IMG/VR virus record: IMGVR_UViG_3300033148_007408
Coordinates: 38,656 to 102,655 of that record
Length of the DNA stretch: 64,000 nucleotides
From: a virus
Reading direction: 5' to 3' (one strand)
Shown: piece by piece, positions 20,208-44,460 of the stretch
How the letters are laid out: the number at the start of each line of letters is the position of its first letter
Position numbering within the stretch: position 1 is the first letter of the stretch
Notes under the pieces: model-generated
Databases searched by the model: none
What the model was told of the DNA's origin: nothing
The model's input: only the letters and a program-made list of their open reading frames with translations
Position numbers and translations under genes: made by a program

Positions 20208-20262
20208 AATAAATGCTCAATGAAATCAGTTGAGTCCAAAAAAGTTTCAGATATTTTCCACA

Positions 20263-20288
20263 AATCTATCAATAATTCCGTATATAGT
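20263..20288 (+). promoter_or_regulatory. Promoter-like motif class A (AATCTATCAATAAT-N5-ATATAGT)
   Basis: Matches the 7393 copy; followed by AAGGAGG RBS and ATG20304. Confidence 0.65.
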
Positions 20289-20303: not shown

Positions 20304-20486
20304 ATGTATGATAAAACGAAATATTATTTTATTACGATCAATTTGTTTAGAGGGCGTCATAAGGATTTAATCAGATGGATCAAAGAGAAAGCAGAACGAG
20401 ATGATAGAAGCATATCCTCCTTTATTATCTCTATTTTAAAAGAAAAATTTGCGGAGGATAAAAATGACCAAGAGAAAATGGAGTAA
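20304..20486 (+). CDS. Small ribbon-helix-helix (Arc-like) DNA-binding protein
   Basis: Strong RBS; FITINLF-HKDLIRWIKEKAERDDRSISSFIISIL pattern; similar to 8751-8915. Confidence 0.75.
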   Translation: MYDKTKYYFITINLFRGRHKDLIRWIKEKAERDDRSISSFIISILKEKFAEDKNDQEKME

Positions 20487-23994: not shown

Positions 23995-24008
23995 AATATT
24001 AGTAGATT
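23995..24008 (-). promoter_or_regulatory. Promoter-like motif class A variant (AATCTACTAATATT on the minus strand)
   Basis: Lies 11 nt upstream of ATG23983; no RBS between, so the mRNA may be leaderless. Confidence 0.5.
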
Positions 24009-24019
24009 TTTTAAGAATG

Positions 24020-25663: not shown

Positions 25664-25779
25664 GTCATTTCATGCGTGATGTTTATACGATAATGGTTTC
25701 TGCTTATTGGAGGTTGGGGCAGAGGGCTGTTGCTTCACTTTCATATGATTTTGTAATGAAACATTTGAGGCCGAAATGA
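25660..25779 (+). CDS. Small hypothetical protein, 39 aa, absent from the ORF track
   Basis: ATGA overlaps with both neighbours; MSHFMRDVYTIMVSAYWRLGQRAVASLSYDFVMKHLRPK. Confidence 0.5.
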   Translation: MSHFMRDVYTIMVSAYWRLGQRAVASLSYDFVMKHLRPK

Positions 25780-26087
25780 ATGGCGAAATGAAAGTTTTAT
25801 ATCGGTATTGTTGCGGTGGTTCATTGCCAAAAATTAGCCTTTTTTTGATGCGGAGAGATATAAAACGCGCTCTTAACTTATATGAGGAATATAGGTATTT
25901 GAGAGGTAAGTTTTTCTGTAATCATCAATGGCAGTTATTTACCATAGTGCCTTCTGGAACTTTCGCTGTATATTTTGGCACCGCGAAGTGCATATGTGAA
26001 AAATGTGGCAAGGTTTCGTATGATAAGAGATGTAGAAATCCAGACGATAGGCTGATAGATTGCTCTAGTCATGTGGTGTATGGATGA
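25776..26087 (+). CDS. Hypothetical protein with a possible Zn-ribbon (CNHQW...CEKCGK)
   Basis: Coupled ORF; Cys/His pattern seen in small phage proteins. Confidence 0.6.
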   Translation: MNGEMKVLYRYCCGGSLPKISLFLMRRDIKRALNLYEEYRYLRGKFFCNHQWQLFTIVPSGTFAVYFGTAKCICEKCGKVSYDKRCRNPDDRLIDCSSHVVYG

Positions 26088-26326
26088 ACTATTTATTTTT
26101 GGAATTATATAGGGATTTTTGTTCAGATCTGTTTGTTTTTACATCAGAGCGATTAGGGTGGAGTTTTCCCGAAGGTTATAAGATACATGTTTTTAACAAA
26201 GAAGTTTTACAGCACATTCGGCCAAAACTGATTAAATTGTTTGTGTTTCAAAAGTCATCCGAGCATTTGATAAAGACATTCACAATAGTTGGAAGCTATA
26301 TAGGAAGAGCGGATAGGAGATATTAA
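26084..26326 (+). CDS. Hypothetical protein
   Basis: Overlap-coupled to both neighbours. Confidence 0.5.
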   Translation: MNYLFLELYRDFCSDLFVFTSERLGWSFPEGYKIHVFNKEVLQHIRPKLIKLFVFQKSSEHLIKTFTIVGSYIGRADRRY

Positions 26327-26676
26327 TGAGCAATTATACGACGGCAGCAGTAGGGCAAATGAAAGCGAGATCGTTTATGTTTTGGTTTCCTCGTCAATGT
26401 TATTCTCAATTTGTGCCATCTAAATATCCTAATCTTAAGGAGGGTTCTGTGGATTTCGGACATGATTTTGCTTCTGATATTGATTATAAATTAGCACATA
26501 TGCTTGTCGATAAAAATGAAAGAAAAAAGCGATTCGACAAGGTTAGGGGTAAAATATTTCATTATTTTCACACGCGATCGGCAATAGCAAACGAAATAAT
26601 GGCTTTAATAGAACTCAAACAGAAGATTCGGGATTATATACGAGTAAGCATTGAGTCTTTCAGAGCCACCAAATGA
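26326..26676 (+). CDS. Hypothetical protein, tandem paralog 1
   Basis: AGGAG RBS; C-terminal half (DYK...RS.I..EI...DYIRVSIESFRATK) matches the next ORF. Confidence 0.65.
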   Translation: MSNYTTAAVGQMKARSFMFWFPRQCYSQFVPSKYPNLKEGSVDFGHDFASDIDYKLAHMLVDKNERKKRFDKVRGKIFHYFHTRSAIANEIMALIELKQKIRDYIRVSIESFRATK

Positions 26677-26981
26677 AAATAGATTATTTTGTAAAAAAAA
26701 CATATTGGAGGTTTATTCCGCCTAATGACTCAAGGCCAGAGGAGGAGACAGACGAATATTACATTTACGATCAAAGTGACGATGATGATTATAAGATTAT
26801 TAAATATCTGTGTTCCAAACAAGAGAAAAAGAAAAACTATCAAAAAATTAAGAAGCGATTACTGCGGAACATGAGACAAAGATCCGTATTGATCTCAGAA
26901 ATTATAAATGCCAAGATTACAATTAGAAATCTTATTGATTATGTAAGGTTCAGTCTAGAGTCTTATAGAGAAACCAAATGA
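26673..26981 (+). CDS. Hypothetical protein, tandem paralog 2
   Basis: Ends DYVRFSLESYRETK; ATGA overlaps. Confidence 0.65.
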   Translation: MKIDYFVKKTYWRFIPPNDSRPEEETDEYYIYDQSDDDDYKIIKYLCSKQEKKKNYQKIKKRLLRNMRQRSVLISEIINAKITIRNLIDYVRFSLESYRETK

Positions 26982-29060: not shown

Positions 29061-29727
29061 AAAATGTTTAAAATGCAACGAGAACAAACATTTAGAAGAA
29101 TTTTGCAAAGATAGGCTTTGCAAGGATGGGTATAGAAATGTTTGTAAGGAATGTTATAACGCTCGCAAAAAAGAGTTGGTCAACCCGAAAAAAAGAGCTA
29201 AGAAATATCAGGAAAACAAAGAAAAAAATAAGAAGAGGGCAAGGGAGTATTACTATAAAAACAGAGAAGACATTTTGAAGTATAAGAAGCAACATTATGA
29301 GCAAAATAAAGAAGATATTATAGAATATCACAGAGAATATAACGAAAAAAATAGAGAAGTTATAAATCAAAAAGCAAGGGTTTATAAAGATAAAAATCGT
29401 GAAAAAGTTAAAAGGTCAAATAGGCAGTACGACAGGAAGAGGAGAGATTTGCGAAAATCCATAGGAGAAAAATATACCAGTTTTGATGAAAAAGTTACTA
29501 GGATGGTGTTTGACAATGTATGTGCCAATTGTGGCTCTAAAGAGAATCTTCAAATAGACCATCACTATCCATTATCAAAAGGTTTTGCTCTTTCCATAAC
29601 AAATGCCGTGCTATTATGTAAAGATTGTAATTGGGCGAAATTTACTAAACTGCCAGAAGAATTTTACTCCAAGAGAAAGTTGACAAAAATAAATTTGTTG
29701 CTTAAAAAAGCAAAGGATTACAAATGA
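29050..29727 (+). CDS. HNH endonuclease with N-terminal CxxC...CxxC zinc finger; probable ATA start
   Basis: Frame extends upstream of TTG29176 (KKCLKCNENKHLEEF...NVCKEC); C-terminal CANCGS...IDHHYPLSKG...NAVLLCKDCNWAK; GGAGG at 29036-29040. Confidence 0.85.
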   Translation: MTHKKCLKCNENKHLEEFCKDRLCKDGYRNVCKECYNARKKELVNPKKRAKKYQENKEKNKKRAREYYYKNREDILKYKKQHYEQNKEDIIEYHREYNEKNREVINQKARVYKDKNREKVKRSNRQYDRKRRDLRKSIGEKYTSFDEKVTRMVFDNVCANCGSKENLQIDHHYPLSKGFALSITNAVLLCKDCNWAKFTKLPEEFYSKRKLTKINLLLKKAKDYK

Positions 29728-30797
29728 CTGAAAAAATTGCGTTAGTGGTAAGAGAACTTACCTATCTTAAGGCGCTTCATCCGATAATGGTGGAATTGAA
29801 AAAAGCAGGCCAACAATATATCATTTATCATTATGATATGTTTAGAGGCGCGAAGGAATATAATCGTGCGACCAGAAAGAAAATGGTACAATCGTCCAGA
29901 GAAGTGATGGCCGGCGCTAAGAAAATTAAGGCATTTGCGGACGAAAAAGAGTTACAAAAGGGTTTGTTACACGATAGAATAACTAAAATGGTGAGTTTGG
30001 AGATATGGCTGTGGGCTCGTAAGTATATGGATTTTTTTAAGAAACATAATATAAAAACATATTCTATTATGTATTTAACCGATAGTTTGTGGCAACCAGA
30101 TCCAAGATGTGCGACTTCGGTTTATAGAGTTTATTATTCCTCTCGGCATATTATGGAAAAACATCATAAATTTGCTGGAATTAAATATAATGAGGTTCGA
30201 GATAAATGCATAGGCTCTCCGATATTCGACTCGTTGGCGGAAGAAACAGAGGGGGAAGATATTTTAGTGTTGCTACCCAATATGCTGGCAGAGCATGTTA
30301 GAGCGACATTCGGCACCAAGGCAAACTTTAATAAAATCATCGAAAAAGTGTGCGAATATAAAAAGCCCATATTCAAAGCACGAAAGAAACAATGGATTCC
30401 CAAAATAGTTAAAAACGGGAAACATGAGATAATATTCGATGGGGCTCAAATGTATCCGCCTAAGATTTCGGAATTATTGCAGAGGTCGTTTGCTGTTGTA
30501 ATGTTTCTCTCTAGCGGTGTTTATGAGTGTGTATATAGTGGAAATTACGTAATAAACATAACTATTCCGGTTAAAAGATGGTCTTGGAGTAAAGATAAAA
30601 TGCAAGAGTATTTTTCAACCAAACCCCAAAGTTTATACAATTTCGAGGGGGTGATTGAAAGCCACTCACAAGAAGGCTTTTTATCTGGCGATTTTAACCC
30701 TCGGCGAATTGATAAAGATAAACAAAAAGATTGGGTTAAGTCGTTCGGTGTTGCCAGTGGGGCGTCAAATATTGCACAAGATATAATTAACAGTTAG
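29724..30797 (+). CDS. Divergent GT-B-fold (TagF/sialyltransferase-like) putative transferase, family B; paralog of 46595 and 51596
   Basis: Shared motifs LK.L.PI, YSI.Y..DS, RD..+GSP+FD, K.R.K, MF.SS.+YE.+..G.YVIN. Confidence 0.5.
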   Translation: MTEKIALVVRELTYLKALHPIMVELKKAGQQYIIYHYDMFRGAKEYNRATRKKMVQSSREVMAGAKKIKAFADEKELQKGLLHDRITKMVSLEIWLWARKYMDFFKKHNIKTYSIMYLTDSLWQPDPRCATSVYRVYYSSRHIMEKHHKFAGIKYNEVRDKCIGSPIFDSLAEETEGEDILVLLPNMLAEHVRATFGTKANFNKIIEKVCEYKKPIFKARKKQWIPKIVKNGKHEIIFDGAQMYPPKISELLQRSFAVVMFLSSGVYECVYSGNYVINITIPVKRWSWSKDKMQEYFSTKPQSLYNFEGVIESHSQEGFLSGDFNPRRIDKDKQKDWVKSFGVASGASNIAQDIINS

Positions 30798-30825
30798 TTT
30801 TTTTCGGTCAGACCTTCCAAAAAAA

Positions 30826-30969
30826 TCGCGTTCTTAAAAAATATCCTCCAAGTCGCGTTTTCTTAAAAATACTTTCCTAATAATTTCAACCACTTAAAAA
30901 AAATAATTCTGAAAATCTATCAATATTCTAAAAATCTATCCATAGTTGGGTATAAGGTGTGGGTATAAG
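30826..30969. repeat. Three pairs of short direct repeats in the intergenic region upstream of the HTH-PseB fusion
   Basis: TCGCGTT(TT)CTTAAAAA at 30826 and 30853; AAAATCTATC(A/C)ATA at 30912 and 30931 (class A motif); TGGGTATAAG at 30947 and 30960. Confidence 0.75.
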
Positions 30970-31033
30970 TTTTCTTAAATGGGCTTAAATAATGACATTG
31001 CTGGAAAGTAATTAAATCTGGGGTTTGAAACGC

Positions 31034-32215
31034 ATGGAACAATATTCAATAGGCGAAATGGCTAAAAAATTGGGAAAAAGCGTGAAAACCTTGCAGCGGT
31101 GGGATAAAAATGGGACACTATCGGCTTTTAGACATGCTTCCAATAGGCGTTATTATACCCAAAAACAATTTCTAGAAGCCTCCAACAGAGTCAATTATAT
31201 TAAAGATGGTACGGACTTGGATGCTGTTAGAAATAAAACGGTATTAATAACCGGGGCAACAGGGAGTCTCGGAACTAAACTCACGGCACGCATTTGTACT
31301 GTGGCCAAAAAAATTATTGTTTTTAGTCGGTGCGAATTAAAGCAAGCAAATATGCAGGCTCAGTTTTCCGATAAAGACAATATAAGGTATATGCTGGGAG
31401 ATATTAAAGACAAGGAAAGGTTAGATTCTGCCTTGGATGGTGTAGATGTTTGTGTCCACGCTGCTTGTTTTAAGAGAATAGACAGTTGTTCTTATAATCC
31501 CTTTGAGGCAATTAAAACCAACATTAATGGCTCCGTAAATGTTGCGGAGGCGTGTATTAAGCGACAGGTTAAAAAAGTAATTTTTGTTTCAACAGATAAG
31601 GCAACTGAGTCCGGTACGTTATATGGCGGAACAAAGTTTGTCGCAGAACAGATGTTTATCAATGCAAATAACTATTCTAGTCGTAACTCTACAATTTTTT
31701 CGATAGTCAGGTATGGGAATGTTTATGGCAGTAATGGGAGCGTTAGGCATATTTTTGAGAAACAGGCGGAAGAAAATGGTGTTATTGGCATAACACACCC
31801 GGAAATGACTAGGTTTTTTATGTCTCTTGATGATGCGTGTGATCTTGTTTTATTTTGTGCAAATGGTATGATTGGTGGAGAAATATACGTTCCGAAAATG
31901 AAATCCATAGAGATAGTAAAATATGCAGAAATCTTTGCACCAAATACTCCCATAAAAATTATAGGACTTCGTGGCCATGAGAAAATACATGAAAAGTTAA
32001 TCTCCGAAACGGAAATGCTATATGTGGTTAAATGTAATGAAAAGTATTACAAAATAATCCCGCCCCATGTTAATATTCCGGGATTGGGTTGGGACGTTAA
32101 TTATCCAGAAGAAAAAAAGACACATAAAGTTACCTTATCATCGAATACTGCAGAAAGATTTACCAACCAAGAAATTATGAAGTTTGAATGCGACTTAAGT
32201 AATAAGGATGCGTGA
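31034..32215 (+). CDS. pseB: UDP-GlcNAc 4,6-dehydratase (PseB/FlaA1 family) with N-terminal MerR/IS607-TnpA-type HTH
   Basis: N-terminal YSIGEMAKKLGKSVKTLQRWDKNG...RRYYT; then ITGATGSLG, FSRCELKQ, HAACFK, STDKA...LYGGTK, VRYGNVYGSNGSV, MTRFFM, GHEKIHEKL. Confidence 0.9.
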   Translation: MEQYSIGEMAKKLGKSVKTLQRWDKNGTLSAFRHASNRRYYTQKQFLEASNRVNYIKDGTDLDAVRNKTVLITGATGSLGTKLTARICTVAKKIIVFSRCELKQANMQAQFSDKDNIRYMLGDIKDKERLDSALDGVDVCVHAACFKRIDSCSYNPFEAIKTNINGSVNVAEACIKRQVKKVIFVSTDKATESGTLYGGTKFVAEQMFINANNYSSRNSTIFSIVRYGNVYGSNGSVRHIFEKQAEENGVIGITHPEMTRFFMSLDDACDLVLFCANGMIGGEIYVPKMKSIEIVKYAEIFAPNTPIKIIGLRGHEKIHEKLISETEMLYVVKCNEKYYKIIPPHVNIPGLGWDVNYPEEKKTHKVTLSSNTAERFTNQEIMKFECDLSNKDA

Positions 32216-33433
32216 ATGAGCAAACCAGCGATAGAAGGCGGAAATCCTATACGAGAGAATTTTCTAGTTTTTGGCCAGCCTCAGGTTACAAAAGAAGATA
32301 TTTCCGCAGTTACAGAAACAATGCAGTCTTGTTGGCTAGGCACTGGAAAGAAAACAACTGAGTTTGAACATAAGTTTGCTGAATATCAAGGGGTTAAACA
32401 CGCTATAGGCCTAAACTCGTGCACTTCTAGTCTCCTTTTAGGCCTATTGTCGCTGGGATTGAATTTTCGCGACGAAGTCATATGCCCTATTTTCACCTTT
32501 ACAGCCACTGCTAGCCAAATAATCCACAGCCGACTCAAACCCGTGTTCATAGACGCCCAAATGAAAACGCAAAATATCGAGGTGGCAAACATAGAGCAAG
32601 CAATAACCGCAAAAACTCGTGCAATAATTATAGTGCATTTTGCTGGATTGTCGTGCGAGATGGATGAAATAATTGACATATGTAAGCGATACAATTTATA
32701 TTTATTATGTGATTCCGCACATTGTATAGAAGGGACTTACAAAGGAAAACACTGTGGGACGTTTGGTGACATAGGATGTTTTTCATTCTACAGCACCAAA
32801 AATATGACGACAGCAACCGGCGAGGGCGGAATGCTTGTGTGCGAAGATGATAGAATAGCAGAGTTTGTGCGTAAAGCTTCTCTTCACGGTATGTCTAAAG
32901 GAGCACATAACAGATTCAATACAGGCGGTTTTAATCATTACAGCGTCGATATGTGTGGCTTCAAGAGTAACCTAACAGATGTACAATCATCAATGGCGAT
33001 GACTCAATTATCTCGAATCGAATTGAATTGGGAGAAACGTAGTAAGGTATGGGATAAATACATGAAAGCATTTGGGGCATTAGACAACTTATTATTTACC
33101 CCGCCGCCTGTACCAAAACATATCAAGCACGGGTATCATCTTTTCACTCTACACCTGAAAATAGAAAAGCTTAAGGTGGGACGAGATTTTGTTCTTAATG
33201 CGTTGGCCAAAGAGGGTATAGGGACCGGAGTGCATTATCTGTCTTTACATATGCACCCATATTATATGAACACTTTTAATTTATCCGCTGTAGATTTTCC
33301 ATGTGCGCAATGGGTTTCAGAGAGGACTATTTCATTACCGCTGTCACCAAAACTTACGGAAAAAGACACAGATGATGTGATAAAGGCGGTTTATAAAATA
33401 CTCAATTATTATAAGAAAGTTGGCTCGGTATGA
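32216..33433 (+). CDS. DegT/DnrJ/PseC-family PLP sugar aminotransferase
   Basis: NSCTSSL, FTFTATA, DSAHCI, FSFYSTKNMTTATGEGGM, GVHY, ISLPLSP. Confidence 0.92.
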   Translation: MSKPAIEGGNPIRENFLVFGQPQVTKEDISAVTETMQSCWLGTGKKTTEFEHKFAEYQGVKHAIGLNSCTSSLLLGLLSLGLNFRDEVICPIFTFTATASQIIHSRLKPVFIDAQMKTQNIEVANIEQAITAKTRAIIIVHFAGLSCEMDEIIDICKRYNLYLLCDSAHCIEGTYKGKHCGTFGDIGCFSFYSTKNMTTATGEGGMLVCEDDRIAEFVRKASLHGMSKGAHNRFNTGGFNHYSVDMCGFKSNLTDVQSSMAMTQLSRIELNWEKRSKVWDKYMKAFGALDNLLFTPPPVPKHIKHGYHLFTLHLKIEKLKVGRDFVLNALAKEGIGTGVHYLSLHMHPYYMNTFNLSAVDFPCAQWVSERTISLPLSPKLTEKDTDDVIKAVYKILNYYKKVGSV

Positions 33434-34113
33434 TTGATTTAGATGGAAAAAATATATTACTGACGGGCGATAAGGGTTTTTTGGGGAACAACCTTAAAAA
33501 CAAACTGCTCCAAGAGTTTGGTTGTAATGTCGTTGGTGTTGATTTGAATGTTTTTGATATAACGGATCCAAATGCCACCGAACAGTATTTTAACTCGATT
33601 GACCTTGAGTTTGATGGAGTGATTAATAATGCGGCAGTCAGTTTTAAGGGAAAGAATATTTCGAATAAAAAGTTTTTAGAAACGCTAAATGTTAATATTT
33701 TTGGCACATATAATGTAATGAAACATGTCCTCCCGAAAATAAAAAAAGGCGGAAGTGTGGTTAATATATCTAGCGTTTATAGTTTTGCAATTCCCAAATA
33801 TTCTATGTATGATGGGAACGAAGAACAATATAACAATATTTCATACGGTGCCAGTAAAGCAGCCGTAAACCAAATGACCAAAATAATGGCAGTGCAAATG
33901 GCACCGGACATAAGAGTAAATGCCGTTAGTCCGGGGGGAATAAGAGGGGATCAAAATATAGAGTTTGTTAAAAAATATTCCCAAAATGTTCCGCTCCAAA
34001 GAATGGTAGAGGTCGATGAGGTTATTGGCTGTATTGTATTTTTGCTGTCAGATATGTCTAGCGGTATAACGGGACAAAATATTTATGTTGATGGTGGTTT
34101 GGGGATTGTATAA
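33430..34113 (+). CDS. SDR oxidoreductase (PtmA-like)
   Basis: TGDKGFLG, INNAA, NISSVY, YGASKAA, RVNAVSPGG, ITGQNIYVDGG. Confidence 0.9.
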   Translation: MIDLDGKNILLTGDKGFLGNNLKNKLLQEFGCNVVGVDLNVFDITDPNATEQYFNSIDLEFDGVINNAAVSFKGKNISNKKFLETLNVNIFGTYNVMKHVLPKIKKGGSVVNISSVYSFAIPKYSMYDGNEEQYNNISYGASKAAVNQMTKIMAVQMAPDIRVNAVSPGGIRGDQNIEFVKKYSQNVPLQRMVEVDEVIGCIVFLLSDMSSGITGQNIYVDGGLGIV

Positions 34114-34937
34114 TGCAGAAGGTTTTTATAATAGCGGAAGCAGGCATAAATCATAATGGCGACGTAGAAGAGGCCAAGAGACTAATAGATGTTGCTCAAA
34201 AATCAGGGGCAAATGCTGTTAAGTTTCAGTCTTATCATACAGACTCGCGTGTTAAAAAAGATAATCCTGCCTATGAAATATTAAAAAAGTGCGAATTGTC
34301 CAAAGAAGAACAGATGTCTCTAATATCTCACGGAAAAGATATGGGAACAGAGGTATTTTTTACTGTTTTTGATTCCGACCATCTTTCATTTTTATTGAAT
34401 GATTGCGGAGCCCAAAGGATAAAATTGGCGTCTTTTGATATAGTTAATATGTCGTTTCTCCGAGAAATAAATCAGTATGCTAGAAGTGATTATAATTTGA
34501 ATGTATTACTATCTACCGGTATGTCTGACCTCCATGAAATAAATAATGCAAGAAACTGCTTAAGTAATGTATCTAATTTGACATTAATGTATTGTGTTTC
34601 TGCGTATCCTATAAAAGATGAAAGCCAAATAAATCTATCATCCATACAAACATTAAAATCGTTTGCATATGGTCCAATTAAAGTGGGGTATAGCAACCAT
34701 CATAAGTCATCCGATATTCCGTTATGGGCCGTTTTAATGGGCGCAAAAACAATAGAATGTCATTTTATGGAAAACGAAAATGACAAATGTGTTGATGCAC
34801 CAGTATCATTAGACAAAAAGATGTTTTCCGATATGGTAAATAAAATACGACGAGCTGAAACCATAATGGGCGATGGAGTGTTGGGGCTAAAGCAAATAGA
34901 AAAAGATGCTTTGGGTTTTAGGAGGGTTTCTGGGTGA
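34113..34937 (+). CDS. Nonulosonic acid synthase 1 (NeuB/PseI family), lacking the C-terminal AFP/SAF domain
   Basis: IIAEAGINHNGD, AVKFQ, IKLAS, LSTGM, CVSAYP, GYSNHH, IECHF. Confidence 0.9.
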   Translation: MQKVFIIAEAGINHNGDVEEAKRLIDVAQKSGANAVKFQSYHTDSRVKKDNPAYEILKKCELSKEEQMSLISHGKDMGTEVFFTVFDSDHLSFLLNDCGAQRIKLASFDIVNMSFLREINQYARSDYNLNVLLSTGMSDLHEINNARNCLSNVSNLTLMYCVSAYPIKDESQINLSSIQTLKSFAYGPIKVGYSNHHKSSDIPLWAVLMGAKTIECHFMENENDKCVDAPVSLDKKMFSDMVNKIRRAETIMGDGVLGLKQIEKDALGFRRVSG

Positions 34938-35779
34938 AAATTTCTTTTTACAGGGATCACGGTGCTATTCGTGAGATAGGCAAAGGGCATTTATATCGAA
35001 CCAAAGCAATTTCCCGCGAGTTAGCAAAGAGAGGTCACTCAGTAGCAAATATTGAAGATGATGTACTTTACTCCGATCTTGATGCATTAGTGATAGATCA
35101 TATACACAGCCAAAAAGAAATTATTATGAGAGCGAAACAAGCAAAAATAAAGGTAATTTTGATCGATGGGGCGGTAGAAGATGTTGCATTAGTTGATGTT
35201 AGTATTAGTGCAATGTATAATCCTATTGCTCAATTTTCAGGACTTAAATATGTATGTATTCCGACAGAGGGTCGTACTAATTACTATTCCGTCGGCAGAA
35301 AGAGTAAAAATGTATTCGTTGCGATGGGAGGATTTGACGCCAACAATATAGCAGAAATGATTGTCGATGCACTCGGGGGTATTGGATTATATGCGATAGT
35401 GGCTAAAAGTATAAATCATGACTTTGCGCCATATAGCAATATGGAGTTTTTCGAGGAAGAAAATTATTACGATGCTATGAACGAATGCACAATAGCAGTA
35501 ACAAACGGCGGACTTAGTCTTTTTCAACTTTTATATTATGGAATGCCCTGTGTAGCAATTCCGCAGTATAAACATCAATCTAAAAACATTTCTTTTGTGA
35601 GTGGTTGTTGTGTTAAGTGTATGCCGGAAAAAGATGAGATAAAAGAAAAAGTGAAATTTCTTATGGATGATGAGTATGCCAAAATCGATTTCAGTATATT
35701 TGGCTCTAACGTAATTGATGGTAAGGGGTGCGAAAGGGTTTGCGATATAATAGAAGGTGTTCATGATTCCGCTAATTGA
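34934..35779 (+). CDS. PseG/SpsG-like UDP-sugar hydrolase
   Basis: IGKGHLYRT, VAMGGFD, TNGGLSLFQ, HQSKN, IDGKGCERV. Confidence 0.82.
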   Translation: MKISFYRDHGAIREIGKGHLYRTKAISRELAKRGHSVANIEDDVLYSDLDALVIDHIHSQKEIIMRAKQAKIKVILIDGAVEDVALVDVSISAMYNPIAQFSGLKYVCIPTEGRTNYYSVGRKSKNVFVAMGGFDANNIAEMIVDALGGIGLYAIVAKSINHDFAPYSNMEFFEEENYYDAMNECTIAVTNGGLSLFQLLYYGMPCVAIPQYKHQSKNISFVSGCCVKCMPEKDEIKEKVKFLMDDEYAKIDFSIFGSNVIDGKGCERVCDIIEGVHDSAN

Positions 35780-36689
35780 TCGTAGGATTTTGCTTTTTGG
35801 TTCGCAGAAAATAGCCATAGATATTATAAATCTAATAAAAAAGCGGAAGTTTTGCGGAATGGACATGGAGACATATGTTTATCCCGAGTTAGTTGGTGTA
35901 ATAACTTCTGATGAGGAAAGAGACAGGCAGGGCGACAATCAATTAGTGTCAGAGTATTGTTTTCAGCAGGGCATTCCATCTTTTTGTTTTGAGGGAAAAA
36001 TAAACACCGAAATAATTAAGAAAATGAAACCCGATATAATATTCAGCGTGTATTATAGAAAAATGATTCCAAAAGATGTGTTAAGCATTCCGCATATGGG
36101 TTGTGTAAATCTTCACCCATCTTTACTTCCCAAAGATCGTGGTCCAAATCCAGTATATTGGTGCATTAGGCGGGGAGATAAGATAACGGGAACCACATTG
36201 CATTATATGGATGAAGGAATGGATACGGGAGATATTATAGACCAGAGGCAAGTACGAATTAATAACATGGCGGGCTTTAGGTTGGGCGAACAGTTAATGA
36301 AGTCGGGAGTTGATTTGTTTAGGTCCAATTACGCAGATATAATGTGCGGAAAGAATGATAGGATGGAACAGGACAGTACGTATATTGCCCCGACATGTAA
36401 TATTTTGTTTAATGATTTAATGCGTAAAATAAATTGGACCGAAAGTGCGGAAAGTATAATCAACCACATCAGGGCACACACTCGGCCTTATTCTGGTTCG
36501 ATTGCGGAAAATAAAAATGGCGGTCAGACTTTTTTGTGGAAGGCCGAGATATTACACGAGTTAAGGGGCAATAAAGGCCCGGGCAGTTATGAAATACGCA
36601 ATGGAGATTTAATTGTGCAGACTTATAATTCCCCCATTAGGGTTAAAGATTATACGGGCGAAATAAAACCAAAAGGAAGGTTTGTATGA
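35763..36689 (+). CDS. N-formyltransferase (Fmt/ArnA-like)
   Basis: NLHPSLLPKDRG, TGTTLHYMDEGMDTGDII, INW...IRAHTRPYSG. Confidence 0.92.
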   Translation: MIPLIDRRILLFGSQKIAIDIINLIKKRKFCGMDMETYVYPELVGVITSDEERDRQGDNQLVSEYCFQQGIPSFCFEGKINTEIIKKMKPDIIFSVYYRKMIPKDVLSIPHMGCVNLHPSLLPKDRGPNPVYWCIRRGDKITGTTLHYMDEGMDTGDIIDQRQVRINNMAGFRLGEQLMKSGVDLFRSNYADIMCGKNDRMEQDSTYIAPTCNILFNDLMRKINWTESAESIINHIRAHTRPYSGSIAENKNGGQTFLWKAEILHELRGNKGPGSYEIRNGDLIVQTYNSPIRVKDYTGEIKPKGRFV

Positions 36690-37459
36690 GTGTTGGAATT
36701 ATTATACAGGCTAGATCTGGGAGCAGTAGATTTCCACGTAAAATCTATGCCCCTTTTAATAATGGCAAAAATAGCATTCAGTGTATTTTAGAGGGAACAA
36801 AGAAAACCATTGTTCCGCATAAGATTGTGTTGGCTATGCCCAAAGATGACCAAAAAGAAATAGAAAAAAGATTGGCAGAAGGAGAATTTAACGAATATAT
36901 CGATAATAGGTTTGAGTTATTTATTGGGCTAGGTGAAGAAGACGACTTGGTGGATAGGTATTATGGGGCGATGAGGAAGTTCGATATAGATGTTTGTATG
37001 AGGATAACGGGAGACTGCCCTATGCACTGTGCCACTTCCGGTATGATGGATGATATGCTGCTGAAATATTTGGGCGAGAGAAAAAGCGTTTTTATGGGAA
37101 ATGATCTGTTAGTGTCACGAGTTCCTTATCCATGCGGAATTGACATGGAGGTATTCAATTACGAGATGATGTGCTGGGTTAAAATGCATGCGAAAACTGA
37201 TGCTGAATTAGAACATTGTGTAACTACCTTGTATGGAACTTTTTCACCCTTCGATTTATACGGTTACGAAAACATTAGGCCACAAATTCAAATATCAACA
37301 CGTATTTCTGATTTTTCCCTAGATACGCGTGAAGATTATGAATTGTTGAAAAAATTGATGAATGAATATGATAAATATCAAGACATAAACAAGGCGATAG
37401 AGAGTGTAAGCCTATCCAATATTAAAAAAACCAATATGAGCAAGAATTTTAGGCAATAG
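36686..37459 (+). CDS. SpsF-type nonulosonate cytidylyltransferase 1
   Basis: IIQARSGSSRFPRK, RITGDCP, PCGIDME, EHCVT, SLDTREDY. Confidence 0.9.
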   Translation: MSVGIIIQARSGSSRFPRKIYAPFNNGKNSIQCILEGTKKTIVPHKIVLAMPKDDQKEIEKRLAEGEFNEYIDNRFELFIGLGEEDDLVDRYYGAMRKFDIDVCMRITGDCPMHCATSGMMDDMLLKYLGERKSVFMGNDLLVSRVPYPCGIDMEVFNYEMMCWVKMHAKTDAELEHCVTTLYGTFSPFDLYGYENIRPQIQISTRISDFSLDTREDYELLKKLMNEYDKYQDINKAIESVSLSNIKKTNMSKNFRQ

Positions 37460-37473
37460 GGCGGGCGAGGGCG

Positions 37474-38592
37474 ATGAGAAAAAAACGAACTATAGAGGGG
37501 TGCCAAGAACATGCCGAGAGTAAGGGCGGGAAATGTATATCGGTAGAATATATCAATGCATGCACTAATCTCGAATGGGAATGTAAAGAAAAACACAGGT
37601 GGTTCGCAACTCCAAATAACATATTGAACAGTGGCACTTGGTGCCCGTTTTGTGTTAGAGTGGCACCATTAAATATTGAGATTTGCCAAGAGCATGCAGA
37701 AAGTAAAAAGGGGAAGTGTTTATCGACTGAATATATAAATGTGCATACTAAACTTGAATGGGAGTGTGAAGAGAGACATACATGGTTTGCAACACCAAAT
37801 AATATTTTGAACAAAGATCGATGGTGTCCCGAGTGCAATAGTCCCGCGCCTCTAACCATTGAAATTTGCCAAGAGTATGCAGAAAGTAAAAAGGGGAAGT
37901 GTTTATCGACTGAATATATAAATAACAAAACAAAACTTGAATGGGAATGTGAAGAGAAGCATACATGGTTTGCAACATCGAGCAGTGTGTTTAATAAAGA
38001 ATGTTGGTGTCCATATTGTGTCAAGAAGGCGAAGCTTACTATTGAAATATGCCAAGAGTATGCCAAAAGCAAAGGTGGAAAATGTTTATCGACTGAATAT
38101 ATTAATAACCACACAAAACTTGAGTGGGAGTGTGAAGAAAAACATCGATGGTTTGCTAAACCACATAATGTTCTAAATTGTGGCACCTGGTGCCCGCAAT
38201 GCAAAAATAAAACACAGAAAAAATTAACGGATATAATTAAGTCTATATTTCAGGATAAAACGGTGCTCTCGGGTTATACTGGGTTTATTTGGCTCAAAAA
38301 TAAAAGAACCAAAAAACACCAAGAGCTAGATATTTATATACCAGAACTTAAAATTGCCATAGAATATGATGGAGAACAACACTTTGGCCCAGTTCGGTTT
38401 AACGGTATATCAATGAAAAGGGCTAAAGAAAAATATAAAGACCAAAAGAGACGAGATAAAAGGAAAAACCGAGTAATTAAAGCACATCCGGAAGATGTAA
38501 AATATTTTATAAGAATACCCTGCGCCGACAAGAAGAAAATATCAGAAAAATATGTAAAAGAGAAATTGCAAGAAGCTGGAATTGAAATATGA
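37474..38592 (+). CDS. Endonuclease with four ~61-aa Zn-ribbon repeats and a C-terminal Vsr-like PD-(D/E)XK domain
   Basis: Four repeats of GKCLSxEYIN..TKLEWECxExHxWFA.P....WCPxC; ELDIYIPELKIAIEYDGEQHF. Confidence 0.88.
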   Translation: MRKKRTIEGCQEHAESKGGKCISVEYINACTNLEWECKEKHRWFATPNNILNSGTWCPFCVRVAPLNIEICQEHAESKKGKCLSTEYINVHTKLEWECEERHTWFATPNNILNKDRWCPECNSPAPLTIEICQEYAESKKGKCLSTEYINNKTKLEWECEEKHTWFATSSSVFNKECWCPYCVKKAKLTIEICQEYAKSKGGKCLSTEYINNHTKLEWECEEKHRWFAKPHNVLNCGTWCPQCKNKTQKKLTDIIKSIFQDKTVLSGYTGFIWLKNKRTKKHQELDIYIPELKIAIEYDGEQHFGPVRFNGISMKRAKEKYKDQKRRDKRKNRVIKAHPEDVKYFIRIPCADKKKISEKYVKEKLQEAGIEI

Positions 38593-39035
38593 GAAAAAAT
38601 GAGAAATACATATGTCTTTCTGGTATGGCGGATCCTTTACGACTTGGGCATATTAAAATGTTGCAGGAGGCGAGCTTTTATGGTAAGGTTATTTGGATAT
38701 TAAACTCGAATGAGTGGATCGAGAGACGGCGAGGCTATTATTTGATGGATTGGAGTGAACGAGCCGAAATACTACGAGCCTATAAAGAAATTCATGATGT
38801 TGTGCCTGTTGACGATCTTGAGGGCGGAACAGTTGAAGAGGCCTTGATACGAATCAAACCACATTTTTTTGGTAATGGCGGCGACTCAAACCCAGACAAT
38901 ACACCGGAAATTAATATCTGTAATCAACTAGGCATAGAGGTGGTGTTCGGATTGGGTGGAGACAAAATGCACAACTCAGGAGAACTCATAGATGTGGTTG
39001 TCGCATCGATTATTAAAAAATTGGAAAAGTGGTAA
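38589..39035 (+). CDS. Cytidylyltransferase-like nucleotidyltransferase (TagD/RfaE-like; HxGH changed to RLGH)
   Basis: SGMADPLRLGH, LNSNEWI, ERAEIL, GNGGD, NTPE, GLGGDK. Confidence 0.85.
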   Translation: MRKNEKYICLSGMADPLRLGHIKMLQEASFYGKVIWILNSNEWIERRRGYYLMDWSERAEILRAYKEIHDVVPVDDLEGGTVEEALIRIKPHFFGNGGDSNPDNTPEINICNQLGIEVVFGLGGDKMHNSGELIDVVVASIIKKLEKW

Positions 39036-39571
39036 TGAAATATTTGGTTGGGCAGAAGATTAAACTCGAAAAGTTCTGCGATAAGCACATAACAGACGAA
39101 TATATTTCATGGTTAAATGATTCCGAAGTTAATAGATACTTGTGCGTAGGAAGGATTCCAGTGTCGAAATCTGATGTTTCTGTTCCGTCGGGAGATAAAG
39201 ATATTCGATTTGCTATAATTGCGAAACGGAAAAAGTATATCGGAACAATATCTTTACATAAAATTGATTGGATTGATCGACGTGGAGAGATAGGTTATAT
39301 AATAGGCGATAAGAGTTTTTGGGGAAAGGGTGTAGCAAGTGAAGCAATATCTTTGGTGACGGCCTATGGTATTAATAGACTTGGACTTAATAAAATAGTG
39401 GCCGGAGTAATCGAAGGAAATACTGGGTCAATGAAGGTGCTGGAAAAGAATGGGTACAAAGAACATGCCATAGAGTATCAGGAATATTGGTTAGAGGGGA
39501 AGTTTTTAGATTTACACAAGTTTTACATTTTGGCGGAATGGAGGCAACATGACAAGAAAACGAACCATTAA
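39035..39571 (+). CDS. GNAT acetyltransferase (RimJ/PseH-like)
   Basis: YISWLND.EV.RYL, GEIGYIIGDKSFWGKG, NTGSMKVLEKNGY. Confidence 0.9.
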   Translation: MKYLVGQKIKLEKFCDKHITDEYISWLNDSEVNRYLCVGRIPVSKSDVSVPSGDKDIRFAIIAKRKKYIGTISLHKIDWIDRRGEIGYIIGDKSFWGKGVASEAISLVTAYGINRLGLNKIVAGVIEGNTGSMKVLEKNGYKEHAIEYQEYWLEGKFLDLHKFYILAEWRQHDKKTNH

Positions 39572-40691
39572 AGAATGCCAAGACATCGCCAAAGAACATG
39601 GTGGAAAATGCTTATCCTTGGAGTATATAGATGGAAAGACCAAACTTGAGTGGGAGTGTGGAGAGCATCACATATGGCATACTGCCCCAAATAATATATT
39701 TAACAGCGGTTGCTGGTGCCCCGAGTGTGTTGCAAATCGTCAAAAATTGACGATTGAAATGTGTCAAGAACATGCAAAAGGCAAAGGTGGCAAGTGTCTA
39801 TCGGCAGAATATAAAAACGCATTATCCAAACTTGAGTGGGAATGTAAAGAGGGACATATTTGGAGTGTAACTCCGAATCAAGTATTAAATAATGATACTT
39901 GGTGTGCCCAATGCGTTAAGGTGGCAAAATTATCCATTGAAATTTGTCAAGAATACGCAGAAAGTAAAAAGGGCAAATGTTTATCGATTGAATATATTAA
40001 TAGCAAAACAAAGCTTGAATGGGAATGTGAAGAAAAGCATACGTGGTTCGCAACTCCGAGTAATATTTTTTTCAGCACCTGGTGTCCACAATGTTGCAGT
40101 AATTTTAAGAAAACTATCGAAGAGTGCAAAGATTATGCCGAAAGTAAAGGTGGAGAGTGTTTATCGGTTGAATACATAAATAGCAAGACCAAACTACTGT
40201 GGAAATGCGGGTGCGGTTATATTTGGGAGGCAACGCCGGGCCATGTTTTGACGGGCACCTGGTGTCCATTATGCGCAAAGCCGGGCGACAAAATCAGAGG
40301 AAGGGTTTTATCTATATTGAAAAGTATTTTTATGCCCCCCGAATGTAAGATAGAAATAAACAAAAAAGGTTTCAAGTGGCTGATAGGCCCAAATAACGGA
40401 GAAATGGAGTTGGATTTCTATATTTATAACAAGGCATTTACTCTGGGCATAGAATACGACGGAGAACAACACTTCAAGCCCGTTCAATTTGGTGGAATAA
40501 GTATGAAAAGGGCAAGAGAGAACTTTAAAGCACAAAAGAAACGAGACAGAAAGAAAAATAAGTTACTTAGGGAACATAAGGATAATATTATGTATTTTGT
40601 AAGATTTAATTGTAAGGAAAAAATAACCAAAGAGTTCGTCGCAGACAAGCTCATAAAATTTGGAGTTCCGCGGGAGTTTATGAATGTCTAA
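39549..40691 (+). CDS. Endonuclease with four Zn-ribbon repeats and a Vsr-like domain; paralog of 37474-38592
   Basis: Same repeat unit; ELDFY...GIEYDGEQHFKPVQFGG. Confidence 0.88.
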   Translation: MTRKRTIKECQDIAKEHGGKCLSLEYIDGKTKLEWECGEHHIWHTAPNNIFNSGCWCPECVANRQKLTIEMCQEHAKGKGGKCLSAEYKNALSKLEWECKEGHIWSVTPNQVLNNDTWCAQCVKVAKLSIEICQEYAESKKGKCLSIEYINSKTKLEWECEEKHTWFATPSNIFFSTWCPQCCSNFKKTIEECKDYAESKGGECLSVEYINSKTKLLWKCGCGYIWEATPGHVLTGTWCPLCAKPGDKIRGRVLSILKSIFMPPECKIEINKKGFKWLIGPNNGEMELDFYIYNKAFTLGIEYDGEQHFKPVQFGGISMKRARENFKAQKKRDRKKNKLLREHKDNIMYFVRFNCKEKITKEFVADKLIKFGVPREFMNV

Positions 40692-44416: not shown

Positions 44417-44436
44417 AAAACATGCGTTGCTGATCG

Positions 44437-44450
44437 AATATAAACAGAGG
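44437..44450 (+). promoter_or_regulatory. Class B motif core (AATATAAAC) joined to an AGAGG RBS
   Basis: Intergenic; partial match to the 8725 and 63592 copies. Confidence 0.4.
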
Positions 44451-44460
44451 TTAATTTTTA

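What the first reader, a model, noticed from the sequence alone, without database searches (positions are those of the whole stretch)
31034..32215. MerR/IS607-type DNA-binding HTH fused in frame to an intact PseB dehydratase
Seen: the first ~50 aa (YSIGEMAKKLGKSVKTLQRWDKNGTLSAFRHASNRRYYTQKQF) look like the N-terminal HTH of IS607 TnpA/MerR proteins. They join without a stop to a PseB/FlaA1 enzyme that retains STDKA and YxxxK. The gene is first in the nonulosonate operon. Inference: either a trigger enzyme that senses UDP-GlcNAc or feedback product and autoregulates the operon, or a domesticated IS607 fragment. I do not know of a described PseB with this architecture.
Basis: partly seen in the sequence, partly recalled or inferred. 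Interest (0 to 1): 0.75.

Follow-up and report, generated by a model that had tools for sequence, protein, structure and literature searches.

The report
DNA-binding domain fused to phage PseB
A huge tailed phage makes a sugar-pathway enzyme (a PseB-type UDP-GlcNAc dehydratase) carrying a small transposase-like DNA-binding domain at its front; the fusion is real and conserved across dozens of related environmental phages, but what the DNA-binding part does is untested.

Summary
ORF 31034-32215 (393 aa) has a MerR-type winged HTH (res 4-49), a 17-aa linker and a PseB/FlaA1-like dehydratase with GxxGxxG, STDKA and YGGTK intact. It is not an assembly quirk: about 65 metagenomic protein clusters (46-71% identical) share the architecture, and eight loci open the frame at the HTH, seven behind a Shine-Dalgarno-like purine run.

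The carrier is a huge tailed phage, not a bacterium. The HTH is closest to IS607-type transposase N-termini and to stand-alone or tandem short MerR-like HTHs. No recombinase domain or second MerR HTH occurs in the 102-206 kb phage records. The fused clade is essentially monophyletic, with two HTH-less members nested inside. The HTH is conserved at 58% mean pairwise identity against 69% for the enzyme core.

The upstream repeat AAAATCTAYYAATAT lies before the fusion gene in seven of eight loci (degenerate in L085). It also precedes the tail sheath gene, homing endonucleases and other genes in three phages, so it is a clade-wide promoter-like motif, not a private operator. No fusion-specific operator was found.

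The trigger-enzyme reading stays plausible but unsupported; an IS607-like origin is supported by sequence similarity. The scan's first readers flagged the same fusion in four other genomes. Verdict: new variant of a known kind, moderate interest.

The parts
29724..30797 (+). Conserved upstream gene (357 aa, no Pfam family), syntenic with the gene before the fusion in related phages
   Evidence: No Pfam hit. It is 47% identical to L006:4806-5885, E 3e-115. L005 has a 363-aa ORF in the same place, which I did not compare.
30798..31033 (+). 236-bp intergenic region ahead of the fusion gene, with three pairs of direct repeats
   Evidence: Repeats listed. No sigma-70-like promoter and no intrinsic terminator found here.
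30912..30945 (+). Two tandem copies, 19 bp apart, of the promoter-like motif AAAATCTAYYAATAT (exact at 30912-30926, 2 mismatches at 30931-30945)
   Evidence: The motif lies upstream of the fusion gene at 0-1 mismatch in seven of eight loci and only at 2 mismatches in L085. It also lies before at least 14 other genes in G000, G001 and G002.
31034..32215 (+). HTH-PseB fusion gene (393 aa plus stop)
   Evidence: AlphaFold2 model: mean pLDDT 87.4, pTM 0.87.
31043..31180 (+). MerR/IS607/BldC-type winged HTH, residues 4-49
   Evidence: Pfam PF13411 and PF00376. A profile of this domain hits BmrR, RacA and BldC in the PDB. pLDDT 87-94, with helices 6-13, 17-26 and 43-49 and a beta wing at about 31-41. 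T19, W23 and Y41 are invariant; R33 and P35 nearly so.
31181..31231 (+). Linker, residues 50-66 (consensus SGKxKYxxxGxDLDAV), with no in-frame ATG
   Evidence: 48% mean pairwise identity; Y55 and D63 nearly invariant. Block-mean pLDDT 82-96.
31232..32212 (+). PseB/FlaA1-like extended SDR domain, residues 67-393
   Evidence: PF02719 E 1.5e-82. TIGR03589 PseB 330.6 bits. PDB 2GN4 E 8e-76.
31253..31273 (+). Rossmann motif G74-A-T-G77-S-L-G80
   Evidence: Read from the translation. G74, G77 and G80 are invariant in A1 and A3.
31589..31636 (+). Catalytic stretch S186-T-D-K-A ... Y197-G-G-T-K201
   Evidence: S186, D188, K189, Y197 and K201 are invariant. The stretch aligns to STDKA...YGATK of FlaA1 2GN4.
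32216..33433 (+). DegT/PseC-like aminotransferase
   Evidence: PF01041 E 7e-110. TIGR03588 PseC 293 bits, below the cut-off of 423.5.
33430..34113 (+). Short-chain dehydrogenase (PtmA-like among other matches)
34113..34937 (+). NeuB-family nonulosonate synthase (short, no SAF domain)
   Evidence: PF03102 E 3e-53. NeuB 210 bits and PseI 155 bits, both below their cut-offs.
34934..35779 (+). Weak PseG-like UDP-sugar hydrolase candidate
   Evidence: TIGR03590 PseG E 1e-10, 41.6 bits, cut-off 153.55.
35757..36689 (+). Formyltransferase (ArnA N-terminal/Fmt-like)
36686..37459 (+). CMP-sugar cytidylyltransferase-like (CTP_transf_3)
   Evidence: weak.
39029..39571 (+). GNAT acetyltransferase, weakly PseH-like

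Best explanation
This is one translated protein of a huge tailed phage. A short MerR-like winged HTH, of the kind found at the N-terminus of IS607 serine transposases and in BldC/RacA-type proteins, is joined by a 17-residue linker to an active PseB-type UDP-GlcNAc 4,6-dehydratase.

Shown: the fusion arose essentially once in a phage lineage and has been kept under selection. It is expressed from the same promoter-like motif as the tail sheath gene and heads a divergent pseudaminic-acid-like gene array.

Inferred: the HTH still binds DNA, and the enzyme core oligomerises like FlaA1, which would present several HTHs. The protein would then sit on DNA and act as a trigger-enzyme-type regulator, coupling the state of the dehydratase (substrate, cofactor or product bound) to transcription of phage sugar genes or other loci. 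The regulatory step and the target site are not shown.
For: Architecture and intact motifs.

Conservation: about 65 clusters at 46-71% identity share MerR plus Polysacc_synt_2 at 376-407 aa. IMG/VR and metagenome loci L005, L006 and L085-L089 carry the same fusion; L085-L089 were read from their translations only.

Translation of the HTH: in all eight loci the frame opens no more than 41 codons before the HTH (20 or fewer in seven), with a start codon at M-x-YS(I/T)xEMA. Seven loci have a GGAG/GAGG-like run 5-10 nt upstream.

Selection: HTH mean pairwise identity is 58% against 69% for the core and 49% for the C-tail. T19, W23 and Y41 are invariant; R33 and P35 nearly so.

DNA-binding competence: residues 1-57 carry 12 K/R against 4 D/E (read). 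T19-x-x-R22-W23-x-K25 has the same spacing as BldC's DNA-contacting Thr27, Arg30, Trp31 and Lys33 (PMC5859096). A profile of the domain hits BmrR, RacA and BldC. The AF2 model shows a confident wHTH, pLDDT 87-94, and no coiled-coil helix.

Specific pairing: it is the only MerR-type HTH in each of three phage records of 102, 206 and 158 kb.

Pathway context: PseC-, NeuB-, PseG- and PseH-like genes and a cytidylyltransferase-like gene lie downstream.

Precedent for MerR-like wHTH proteins coupled to an enzyme: TnrA/GlnR with glutamine synthetase, as summarised in PMC5859096.
Against: No operator private to this gene was found. The conserved upstream motif is shared with at least 14 other genes, and the fusion-gene upstream regions share nothing else.

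Recognition-helix positions 18, 21 and 22 vary within the family (K/Q, Q/R, R/N) while the upstream motif does not. This argues against a simple one-site autoregulatory pair.

Two close relatives lack the HTH (P0069, P0071), so the enzyme does not need it.

The dehydratase scores below NCBIfam's PseB equivalog cut-off, so its exact reaction is inferred. DNA binding, ligand response and oligomeric state are untested.
Confidence: 0.4

Rival explanations
1. DNA tether without gene regulation. The HTH binds DNA with little sequence specificity and merely places the dehydratase oligomer on phage or host DNA, for example to concentrate the first pathway step near the site of virion assembly, or to be carried with the DNA.
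For: Near-identical 'SVKTLQRWD...NRRYYT' recognition regions occur in hundreds of unrelated proteins, including arrays of up to 15 tandem copies. That fits a generic DNA-binding module. RacA, one of the two best PDB matches, is a chromosome anchor and not a transcription factor. No private operator was found. The gene shares its upstream motif with the tail sheath gene.
Against: No advantage of putting a soluble nucleotide-sugar enzyme on DNA is known. The other pathway enzymes carry no such domain. It is the only MerR-type HTH found in the phage records.
Confidence: 0.22
2. The HTH has been re-used as a protein-protein or oligomerisation module (partner enzyme, virion protein or host factor) and no longer binds DNA.
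For: AF2 gives high confidence for the HTH and the linker and pTM 0.87, which is compatible with a fixed position on the enzyme. The linker has nearly invariant Y55 and D63. BldC-type wHTH domains do oligomerise head to tail through the domain itself (PMC5859096).
Against: The basic residues of the recognition helix and the wing are conserved (K12, K25, R33, R38/R39), as are T19 and W23, which in BldC contact DNA phosphates. Net charge of the domain is about +8. I could not inspect model coordinates, so docking on the core is not shown.
Confidence: 0.13
3. Global factor. The fusion protein is itself the sequence-specific factor for the clade-wide motif AAAATCTAYYAATAT and so controls a whole class of phage promoters (tail sheath, homing endonucleases, sugar genes).
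For: The motif precedes the fusion gene in seven of eight loci at 0-1 mismatch (only at 2 mismatches in L085), in two copies in the window and L089. All three phage records searched for the motif carry it and also carry the fusion. The window's gap has no sigma-70-like promoter. The fusion protein's HTH is the only MerR-type HTH found in these records.
Against: The co-occurrence is by construction, because the records were found through the fusion. Recognition-helix residues vary while the motif is constant. A late-class promoter is more simply read by a phage sigma factor or RNA polymerase. A factor made from its own promoter class cannot start that class.
Confidence: 0.08
4. Neutral relic. 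The HTH is a leftover of an IS607-type or homing-element insertion next to pseB that happens to stay in frame and has no function.
For: The closest HTH relatives include IS607 transposases. The region is full of homing endonuclease genes. One relative even carries an intein inside the enzyme. Two nested relatives have lost the HTH.
Against: It is retained over about 65 clusters down to 46% identity, with 58% identity in the HTH itself and the MerR signature residues invariant. A neutral 50-residue appendix would have decayed. No recombinase domain, TnpB or second MerR HTH was found in these records.
Confidence: 0.05
5. Artefact. A mis-assembly or a wrong start makes two separate genes look fused.
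For: None found. The window's own Shine-Dalgarno-like run is weak (GGGG, 12 nt upstream).
Against: The same junction appears in many independent assemblies from different sources (jgi, ena, lgn, ncbi) and in eight loci read base by base. There is no in-frame ATG between codon 9 and codon 107, so a start after the HTH would remove the Rossmann motif.
Confidence: 0.02

Closest known systems
PseB / FlaA1 (UDP-GlcNAc inverting 4,6-dehydratase; H. pylori, PDB 2GN4)
   Same: The enzyme part aligns over about 280 residues with E 8e-76. GxxGxxG, STDKA and YxxxK are conserved. It is followed by PseC-, NeuB-, PseG- and PseH-like genes.
   Different: It carries an N-terminal wHTH and linker that no described PseB has. 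It scores 330.6 bits, below NCBIfam's 407.75 cut-off. The clade has its own substitutions, for example SRCELKQ for SRDELKQ and GSNGS for GSRGS. It is encoded by a phage.
IS607-family serine transposase TnpA (N-terminal MerR-like DNA-binding domain; PMC4058570)
   Same: It has the same kind of HTH at the N-terminus, joined by a short linker to a catalytic domain. Identity to such transposases is 55-64% over about 46 residues.
   Different: There is no serine-recombinase domain, TnpB or second MerR HTH in the three phage records searched. The partner domain is a sugar dehydratase.
BldC and RacA (short MerR-like wHTH proteins without coiled coil; PMC5859096, PDB 6AMA, 5I41)
   Same: A wHTH of about 50 residues with no dimerisation helix. 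The profile matches both. The T-x-x-R-W-x-K spacing of BldC's DNA contacts is present.
   Different: BldC and RacA have no enzyme domain. Binding to direct repeats or GC-rich sites is not shown here.
Trigger enzymes with a covalent DNA-binding domain (BirA, PutA, NadR; my own knowledge, not tested here)
   Same: An N-terminal DNA-binding domain is fused to a metabolic enzyme at the head of its pathway genes.
   Different: These have other folds (BirA wHTH plus ligase, PutA RHH plus dehydrogenase). No operator, ligand switch or regulatory effect is shown for the phage protein.
Classical MerR-family regulators (BmrR, SoxR, CueR)
   Same: The DNA-binding wHTH is homologous (Pfam PF13411 and PF00376; BmrR E 7e-7).
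   Different: It has no antiparallel coiled-coil helix, no C-terminal effector domain, and no palindrome in a 19-20 bp spacer promoter.

Membership tests
PseB (TIGR03589, UDP-GlcNAc 4,6-dehydratase, inverting) | Extended-SDR Rossmann fold with GxxGxxG | tested here: met
   G74, G77 and G80 are invariant. PF02719 E 1.5e-82.
PseB (TIGR03589, UDP-GlcNAc 4,6-dehydratase, inverting) | Catalytic Asp-Lys of STDKA, and Tyr/Lys of YxxxK | tested here: met
   D188, K189, Y197 and K201 are invariant and align to FlaA1 2GN4.
PseB (TIGR03589, UDP-GlcNAc 4,6-dehydratase, inverting) | Score above NCBIfam's curated equivalog cut-off | tested here: not met
   330.6 bits against a cut-off of 407.75. PseB is still the best model, ahead of FnlA at 193 bits.
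PseB (TIGR03589, UDP-GlcNAc 4,6-dehydratase, inverting) | Neighbourhood with the other Pse pathway genes (PseC, H, G, I, F) | tested here: inconclusive
   PseC-, NeuB/PseI-, PseG- and PseH-like genes and a cytidylyltransferase-like gene are present, but all score below the curated cut-offs.
PseB (TIGR03589, UDP-GlcNAc 4,6-dehydratase, inverting) | Inverting 4,6-dehydratase/5-epimerase activity on UDP-GlcNAc | not testable with these tools
   Needs an enzyme assay.
MerR-family transcription regulators | N-terminal winged HTH of the MerR type | tested here: met
   PF13411 32.9 bits (cut-off 21.6) and PF00376 31.2 bits (cut-off 28.2). PDB profile hits to BmrR, TipA and SoxR.
MerR-family transcription regulators | Long antiparallel coiled-coil dimerisation helix after the HTH | tested here: not met
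   The HTH is followed by a 17-residue linker and then the Rossmann strand. AF2 shows only helix 43-49.
MerR-family transcription regulators | C-terminal effector-binding domain, and a palindromic operator in a 19-20 bp spacer promoter | tested here: not met
   The C-terminal part is an SDR enzyme. No sigma-70-like promoter and no such palindrome in 30798-31033.
IS607-family serine transposase | N-terminal MerR-like HTH | tested here: met
   55-64% identity to the N-termini of IS607-type recombinases.
IS607-family serine transposase | Serine-recombinase catalytic domain, with TnpB and element ends | tested here: not met
   No Resolvase match in the protein. Its HTH is the only MerR-type HTH that passes the Pfam cut-off in G000 (a second, weak match is a LAGLIDADG endonuclease) and the only one in G001 and G002. 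TnpB and element ends were not searched for separately.
BldC-like short MerR wHTH proteins | wHTH alone, without coiled coil, with DNA contacts T..RW.K and a basic wing | tested here: met
   T19, R22, W23, K25, R33, R38 and R39 are present. BldC 6AMA matches the profile at E 1.3e-5. The contact residues come from PMC5859096. The mapping is by spacing only, not by a structure overlay.
BldC-like short MerR wHTH proteins | Head-to-tail binding to DNA direct repeats | not testable with these tools
   Direct repeats exist upstream in the window, but binding needs EMSA or footprinting.
Trigger enzymes (BirA/PutA/NadR type) | An active enzyme and a DNA-binding domain in one chain | tested here: met
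   By sequence only.
Trigger enzymes (BirA/PutA/NadR type) | An operator in the promoter of its own pathway genes | tested here: inconclusive
   The only conserved upstream element is a motif shared with at least 14 other genes.
Trigger enzymes (BirA/PutA/NadR type) | DNA binding switched by substrate or product | not testable with these tools
   Needs biochemistry.

The most novel reading that the evidence does not exclude
The HTH-PseB protein is the sequence-specific factor that reads the clade-wide motif AAAATCTAYYAATAT. A sugar-nucleotide enzyme would then gate a whole class of huge-phage promoters (tail sheath, homing endonucleases, glycan genes) according to the UDP-GlcNAc or redox state of the infected cell.
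Probability: 0.07. Interest if true: 0.85.

Novelty: new variant of a known kind. Interest (0 to 1): 0.55.

Why it matters
PseB is the committed step of pseudaminic-acid synthesis, and I found no described PseB that carries a DNA-binding domain. A conserved, selected fusion in a lineage of huge phages gives a concrete, cheap test: one protein and a few DNA fragments. The test would show whether phages use trigger-enzyme logic to tie a roughly 50-kb glycan programme to metabolite supply. It would also be a clean example of an IS607-type DNA-binding domain recruited by a non-transposase. The recurrent promoter-like motif found along the way gives a handle on transcription units in an uncultured huge-phage clade. 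If the HTH proves inert or a mere tether, the finding is a curiosity of domain shuffling.

Tried and rejected
- **Giant virus of eukaryotes.** First guess from thymidine kinase, homing endonucleases and CheckV's 12% completeness. Rejected: no NCLDV capsid match, though that search had no positive control; PHROG tail sheath and baseplate wedge hits; 4-bp gene overlaps and Shine-Dalgarno-like runs.
- **Private operator.** The upstream repeat proved to be a genome-wide motif. No other element is shared by the fusion-gene upstream regions.
- **Second weak MerR match (16821-16916).** It is a DeoR-like HTH of a LAGLIDADG endonuclease, not a second fusion.
- **L064, L075 and L105.** They looked like N-terminally extended relatives. 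Pfam finds no MerR domain in L064 or L075, and in L105 the upstream frame is a separate dehydrogenase-like gene.
- **The look-up of encoding contigs.** The contexts of the large contigs (289-481 kb) and of the HTH-less relatives P0069 and P0071 could not be read, so a split gene with a separate HTH ORF is not excluded for those two.
- **The look-up of sequencing runs.** None was listed, so no reads were laid and no expression data were obtained.
- **Rfam.** No family above its gathering score in the window.
- **Sigma-70 promoter and terminator scan of 30600-31150.** Nothing in the gap.
- **phmmer of the HTH alone against the PDB.** Only weak hits, E 0.02 or worse. The profile search was needed.
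- **Complex prediction and the second structure job.** Not used. A homo-oligomer pass would only mirror solved PseB structures, and model coordinates cannot be inspected for the HTH's position.
- **Literature.** Four searches found no paper on a MerR-PseB fusion or on nonulosonate pathways in huge phages. The library lacks most subscription-journal papers.
Full report
**1. What is there**

The + strand frame 31025/31034..32215 is open and gives 393 residues from ATG 31034.
- Pfam places MerR_1 (PF13411, E 7e-8) on residues 4-49 and MerR (PF00376) on residues 5-41.
- Pfam places Polysacc_synt_2 (PF02719, E 1.5e-82) on residues 70-336.
- NCBIfam's best model is PseB (TIGR03589) at 330.6 bits, ahead of FnlA at 193 bits but below the curated cut-off of 407.75.
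- The closest solved structure of the enzyme part is H. pylori FlaA1/PseB 2GN4, E 8e-76.
- G74/G77/G80, S186-T-D-K-A and Y197-G-G-T-K201 are present and invariant among fused and unfused relatives.
- There is no in-frame ATG between codon 9 and codon 107, so no product could start after the HTH and keep its Rossmann motif.

**2. What carries it**

The window is the last 64 kb of a 102,655-bp IMG/VR virus record that CheckV rates 12% complete.
- I first suspected a giant virus. The upstream 38 kb, however, encode a tail sheath (phrog_2839, E 9e-19) and a baseplate wedge protein (phrog_6, E 1e-36).
- Genes overlap by 4 bp, and Shine-Dalgarno-like runs precede starts.
- So this is a huge tailed phage.
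- The window is mostly a glycan programme: about nine family-2 glycosyltransferase genes, methyltransferases, two NeuB-type synthases, cytidylyltransferases, B12-radical-SAM enzymes and a pyruvyl transferase.
- Homing endonuclease genes are scattered through it: GIY-YIG, two LAGLIDADG, HNH, HNH_repeat and two CapR/DUF4379.
- Directly downstream of the fusion lie PseC-like, SDR, NeuB-like, weakly PseG-like, formyltransferase and cytidylyltransferase-like genes. A weakly PseH-like GNAT follows about 1.6 kb further on, after a homing-endonuclease-like gene (37474-38592) and a small cytidylyltransferase-like gene (38589-39035).
- All of these score below the curated equivalog cut-offs. 'Divergent Pse-like pathway' is the fair description.

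**3. The fusion is not unique**

- A search of 5.8 billion clustered proteins found about 65 clusters at 46-71% identity with the same two domains and lengths of 376-407 aa. They come from several independent sources and sit on contigs of up to 481 kb. Ordinary unfused bacterial PseB follows at 50% identity or less.
- IMG/VR holds two further phage records with it: L005 on a 206-kb record and L006 on a 158-kb record. Metagenomes give five more loci, L085-L089, of which L088 is cut by its contig end at residue 271.
- In all eight loci the frame opens no more than 41 codons before the HTH (20 or fewer in seven), and the start codon sits at M-x-YS(I/T)xEMA. Seven loci have GGAGG, GAGG or GGAG 5-10 nt upstream. 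L005 has AGGAGG at 6 nt.
- A FastTree of the enzyme cores, with the HTH cut off, places the fused proteins on essentially one side of the tree. My regular expression mislabelled at least one fused row, P0057 (its N-terminus is shown), and probably P0060.
- The truly unfused P0069 and P0071 (329 and 327 aa) are nested inside the fused group. P0071 still begins ...NDYIKDKTV, a remnant of the linker. I read that as one gain and two later losses or splits.
- P0074 sits on a long branch, and its place is unsure.

**4. What the HTH is**

- phmmer of residues 1-66 against 1.84 billion representatives gave 1025 hits at E 0.001 or better.
- The best are proteins made of 2-15 tandem copies of the same HTH, small single-HTH proteins, and proteins of 160-215 aa. 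Several of the latter are IS607-type serine recombinases at 55-64% identity.
- 11 of the 149 best hits match Pfam Resolvase.
- Boocock and Rice describe exactly this domain order, an N-terminal MerR-family DNA-binding domain on a short linker, as the hallmark of IS607 transposases (PMC4058570).
- A profile of the domain matches BmrR (7e-7), RacA (9e-7) and BldC (1.3e-5) in the PDB.
- AlphaFold2 on 43 family members models residues 1-50 as a confident wHTH, pLDDT 87-94, with no long coiled-coil helix.
- The domain therefore belongs with the short MerR-like wHTHs (BldC, RacA, IS607 TnpA), not with classical MerR regulators.
- The protein has no recombinase domain. In each of the three phage records the fusion protein's HTH is the only MerR-type HTH. 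This is not an insertion sequence.

**5. Is the HTH kept for a reason?**

- Across 43 fused proteins the mean pairwise identity is 58% in the HTH, 48% in the linker, 69% in the enzyme core and 49% in the C-tail.
- T19, W23 and Y41 are invariant. Y4, A10, L20, L29, A31, R33, P35, Q45 and L47 are nearly so.
- Residues 1-57 of the window's protein carry 12 K/R against 4 D/E (read).
- T19, R22, W23 and K25 have the spacing of BldC's DNA-contacting Thr27, Arg30, Trp31 and Lys33 (PMC5859096). This mapping is by spacing only.
- I infer that DNA binding is retained. It has not been shown.

**6. The upstream region**

- The gap 30798-31033 has three pairs of direct repeats.
- One of them, AAAATCTAYYAATAT, lies upstream of the fusion gene at 0-1 mismatch in seven of eight loci, 42-122 nt before the start. 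That includes the most distant locus, L089, at 49% protein identity. In L085 only a 2-mismatch version is present.
- That looked like an operator until I searched the whole phage records. All 10 matches in G002 lie on the gene strand (6 exact). G001 has 7 matches, of which the 4 exact ones lie on the gene strand. G000 has 6 matches, 2 of them exact.
- All 12 exact instances lie in intergenic DNA, 12-309 nt (10 of 12 within 125 nt) before an ORF on the same strand.
- The downstream genes are the tail sheath gene in all three phages, two conserved unknown proteins, a methyltransferase, an enoyl-CoA hydratase-like protein and five homing endonucleases.
- Aligned on the motif, the fusion-gene instances share nothing that the others lack.
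- The gap has no sigma-70-like promoter.
- My reading: this is a clade-wide promoter-like motif, perhaps of a late class since it serves the sheath gene. The fusion gene starts a transcription unit of that class.
- This weakens the operator idea but does not exclude the possibility that the protein binds this motif or less conserved sites.

**7. Mechanism**

- Shown: one translated chain, a single evolutionary origin, purifying selection on both parts, a Pse-like gene neighbourhood, and the same upstream motif as the tail sheath gene.
- Inferred: an active PseB-like dehydratase; oligomerisation as in FlaA1 (established for PseB, not tested here), which would give a multivalent DNA binder; and DNA binding by the HTH.
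- I commit to a trigger-enzyme-like regulator at about 0.4. Covalent DNA-binding-domain-plus-enzyme proteins at the head of their pathway usually work that way (BirA, PutA, NadR; my own knowledge). MerR-like wHTH proteins are also known to be coupled to an enzyme's state (TnrA/GlnR with glutamine synthetase, summarised in PMC5859096).
- Rivals: a non-regulatory DNA tether (0.22), a re-used protein-interaction module (0.13), a global factor for the motif (0.08), a neutral relic (0.05) and an artefact (0.02).

**8. Novelty**

- Four full-text searches found no description of a MerR/IS607-type HTH fused to PseB or of such pathways in huge phages. One family member is in public databases only as 'hypothetical protein' or 'HTH merR-type domain-containing protein'.
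- The scan's own first readers flagged the same fusion in four other genomes, and the repeats in this window, without follow-up.
- I rate it a new variant of a known kind: a PseB enzyme joined to a short MerR-like wHTH, and possibly a new trigger enzyme.
- Interest is moderate, because the interesting part, what the HTH does, rests on inference.

Noticed in passing
window 30912-30926, 23996-24010 (-), 20261-20275; G000:C1:13723-13736; loci L165-L187: A 14-15 nt motif, (A)AAATCTAYYAATAT, recurs on the gene strand in intergenic DNA of three related huge-phage records. It lies before the tail sheath gene in all three, two conserved unknown proteins, a methyltransferase and five homing endonucleases, as well as the fusion gene. 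It looks like a clade-specific promoter class with no sigma-70 features.
   Followed up: partly
window 7433-8704, 15182-15928, 16752-17711, 20449-21987, 29176-29727, 37474-38592, 39549-40691: Seven homing-endonuclease-like genes (GIY-YIG, two LAGLIDADG, HNH_repeat, HNH, two CapR/DUF4379) are interspersed among the glycan genes. Some sit behind the same promoter-like motif.
   Followed up: partly
protein P0149 (746 aa): A relative of the same HTH-PseB fusion carries an insert of about 360 residues inside the enzyme core, just ahead of the conserved ATLYGGTK stretch. The insert has a LAGLIDADG-like block and ends in ...VVHN followed by C, so it looks like an intein in the enzyme's active-site region.
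   Followed up: no
window 8908-61115: About 50 kb of almost uninterrupted sugar and glycan genes lie next to the tail and baseplate genes. They include about nine GT2 glycosyltransferases, a second NeuB plus cytidylyltransferase pair (49855-51599), three B12-binding/radical-SAM genes (43054-45468, 48471-49832), a glycerophosphotransferase-like gene (41958-43046) and a pyruvyl transferase (55478-56641). This suggests heavy glycosylation of something, perhaps the virion.
   Followed up: partly
window 25664-26977: A 1.3-kb stretch has no ORF of 120 aa or more on either strand. Rfam and tRNA scans of the window found nothing.
   Followed up: no
window 29724-30797; L006:4806-5885: A 357-aa protein with no Pfam family sits directly before the fusion gene and is 47% identical to the gene in the same place in L006. 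L005 has a 363-aa ORF there too, which I did not compare. It may belong to the same pathway.
   Followed up: partly
window 43054-44416: A B12-binding/radical-SAM ORF of 309 aa, whose radical-SAM match stops at profile position 99 of 166, is followed 1 nt later by a 143-aa ORF. This may be a split or frameshifted radical-SAM gene.
   Followed up: no
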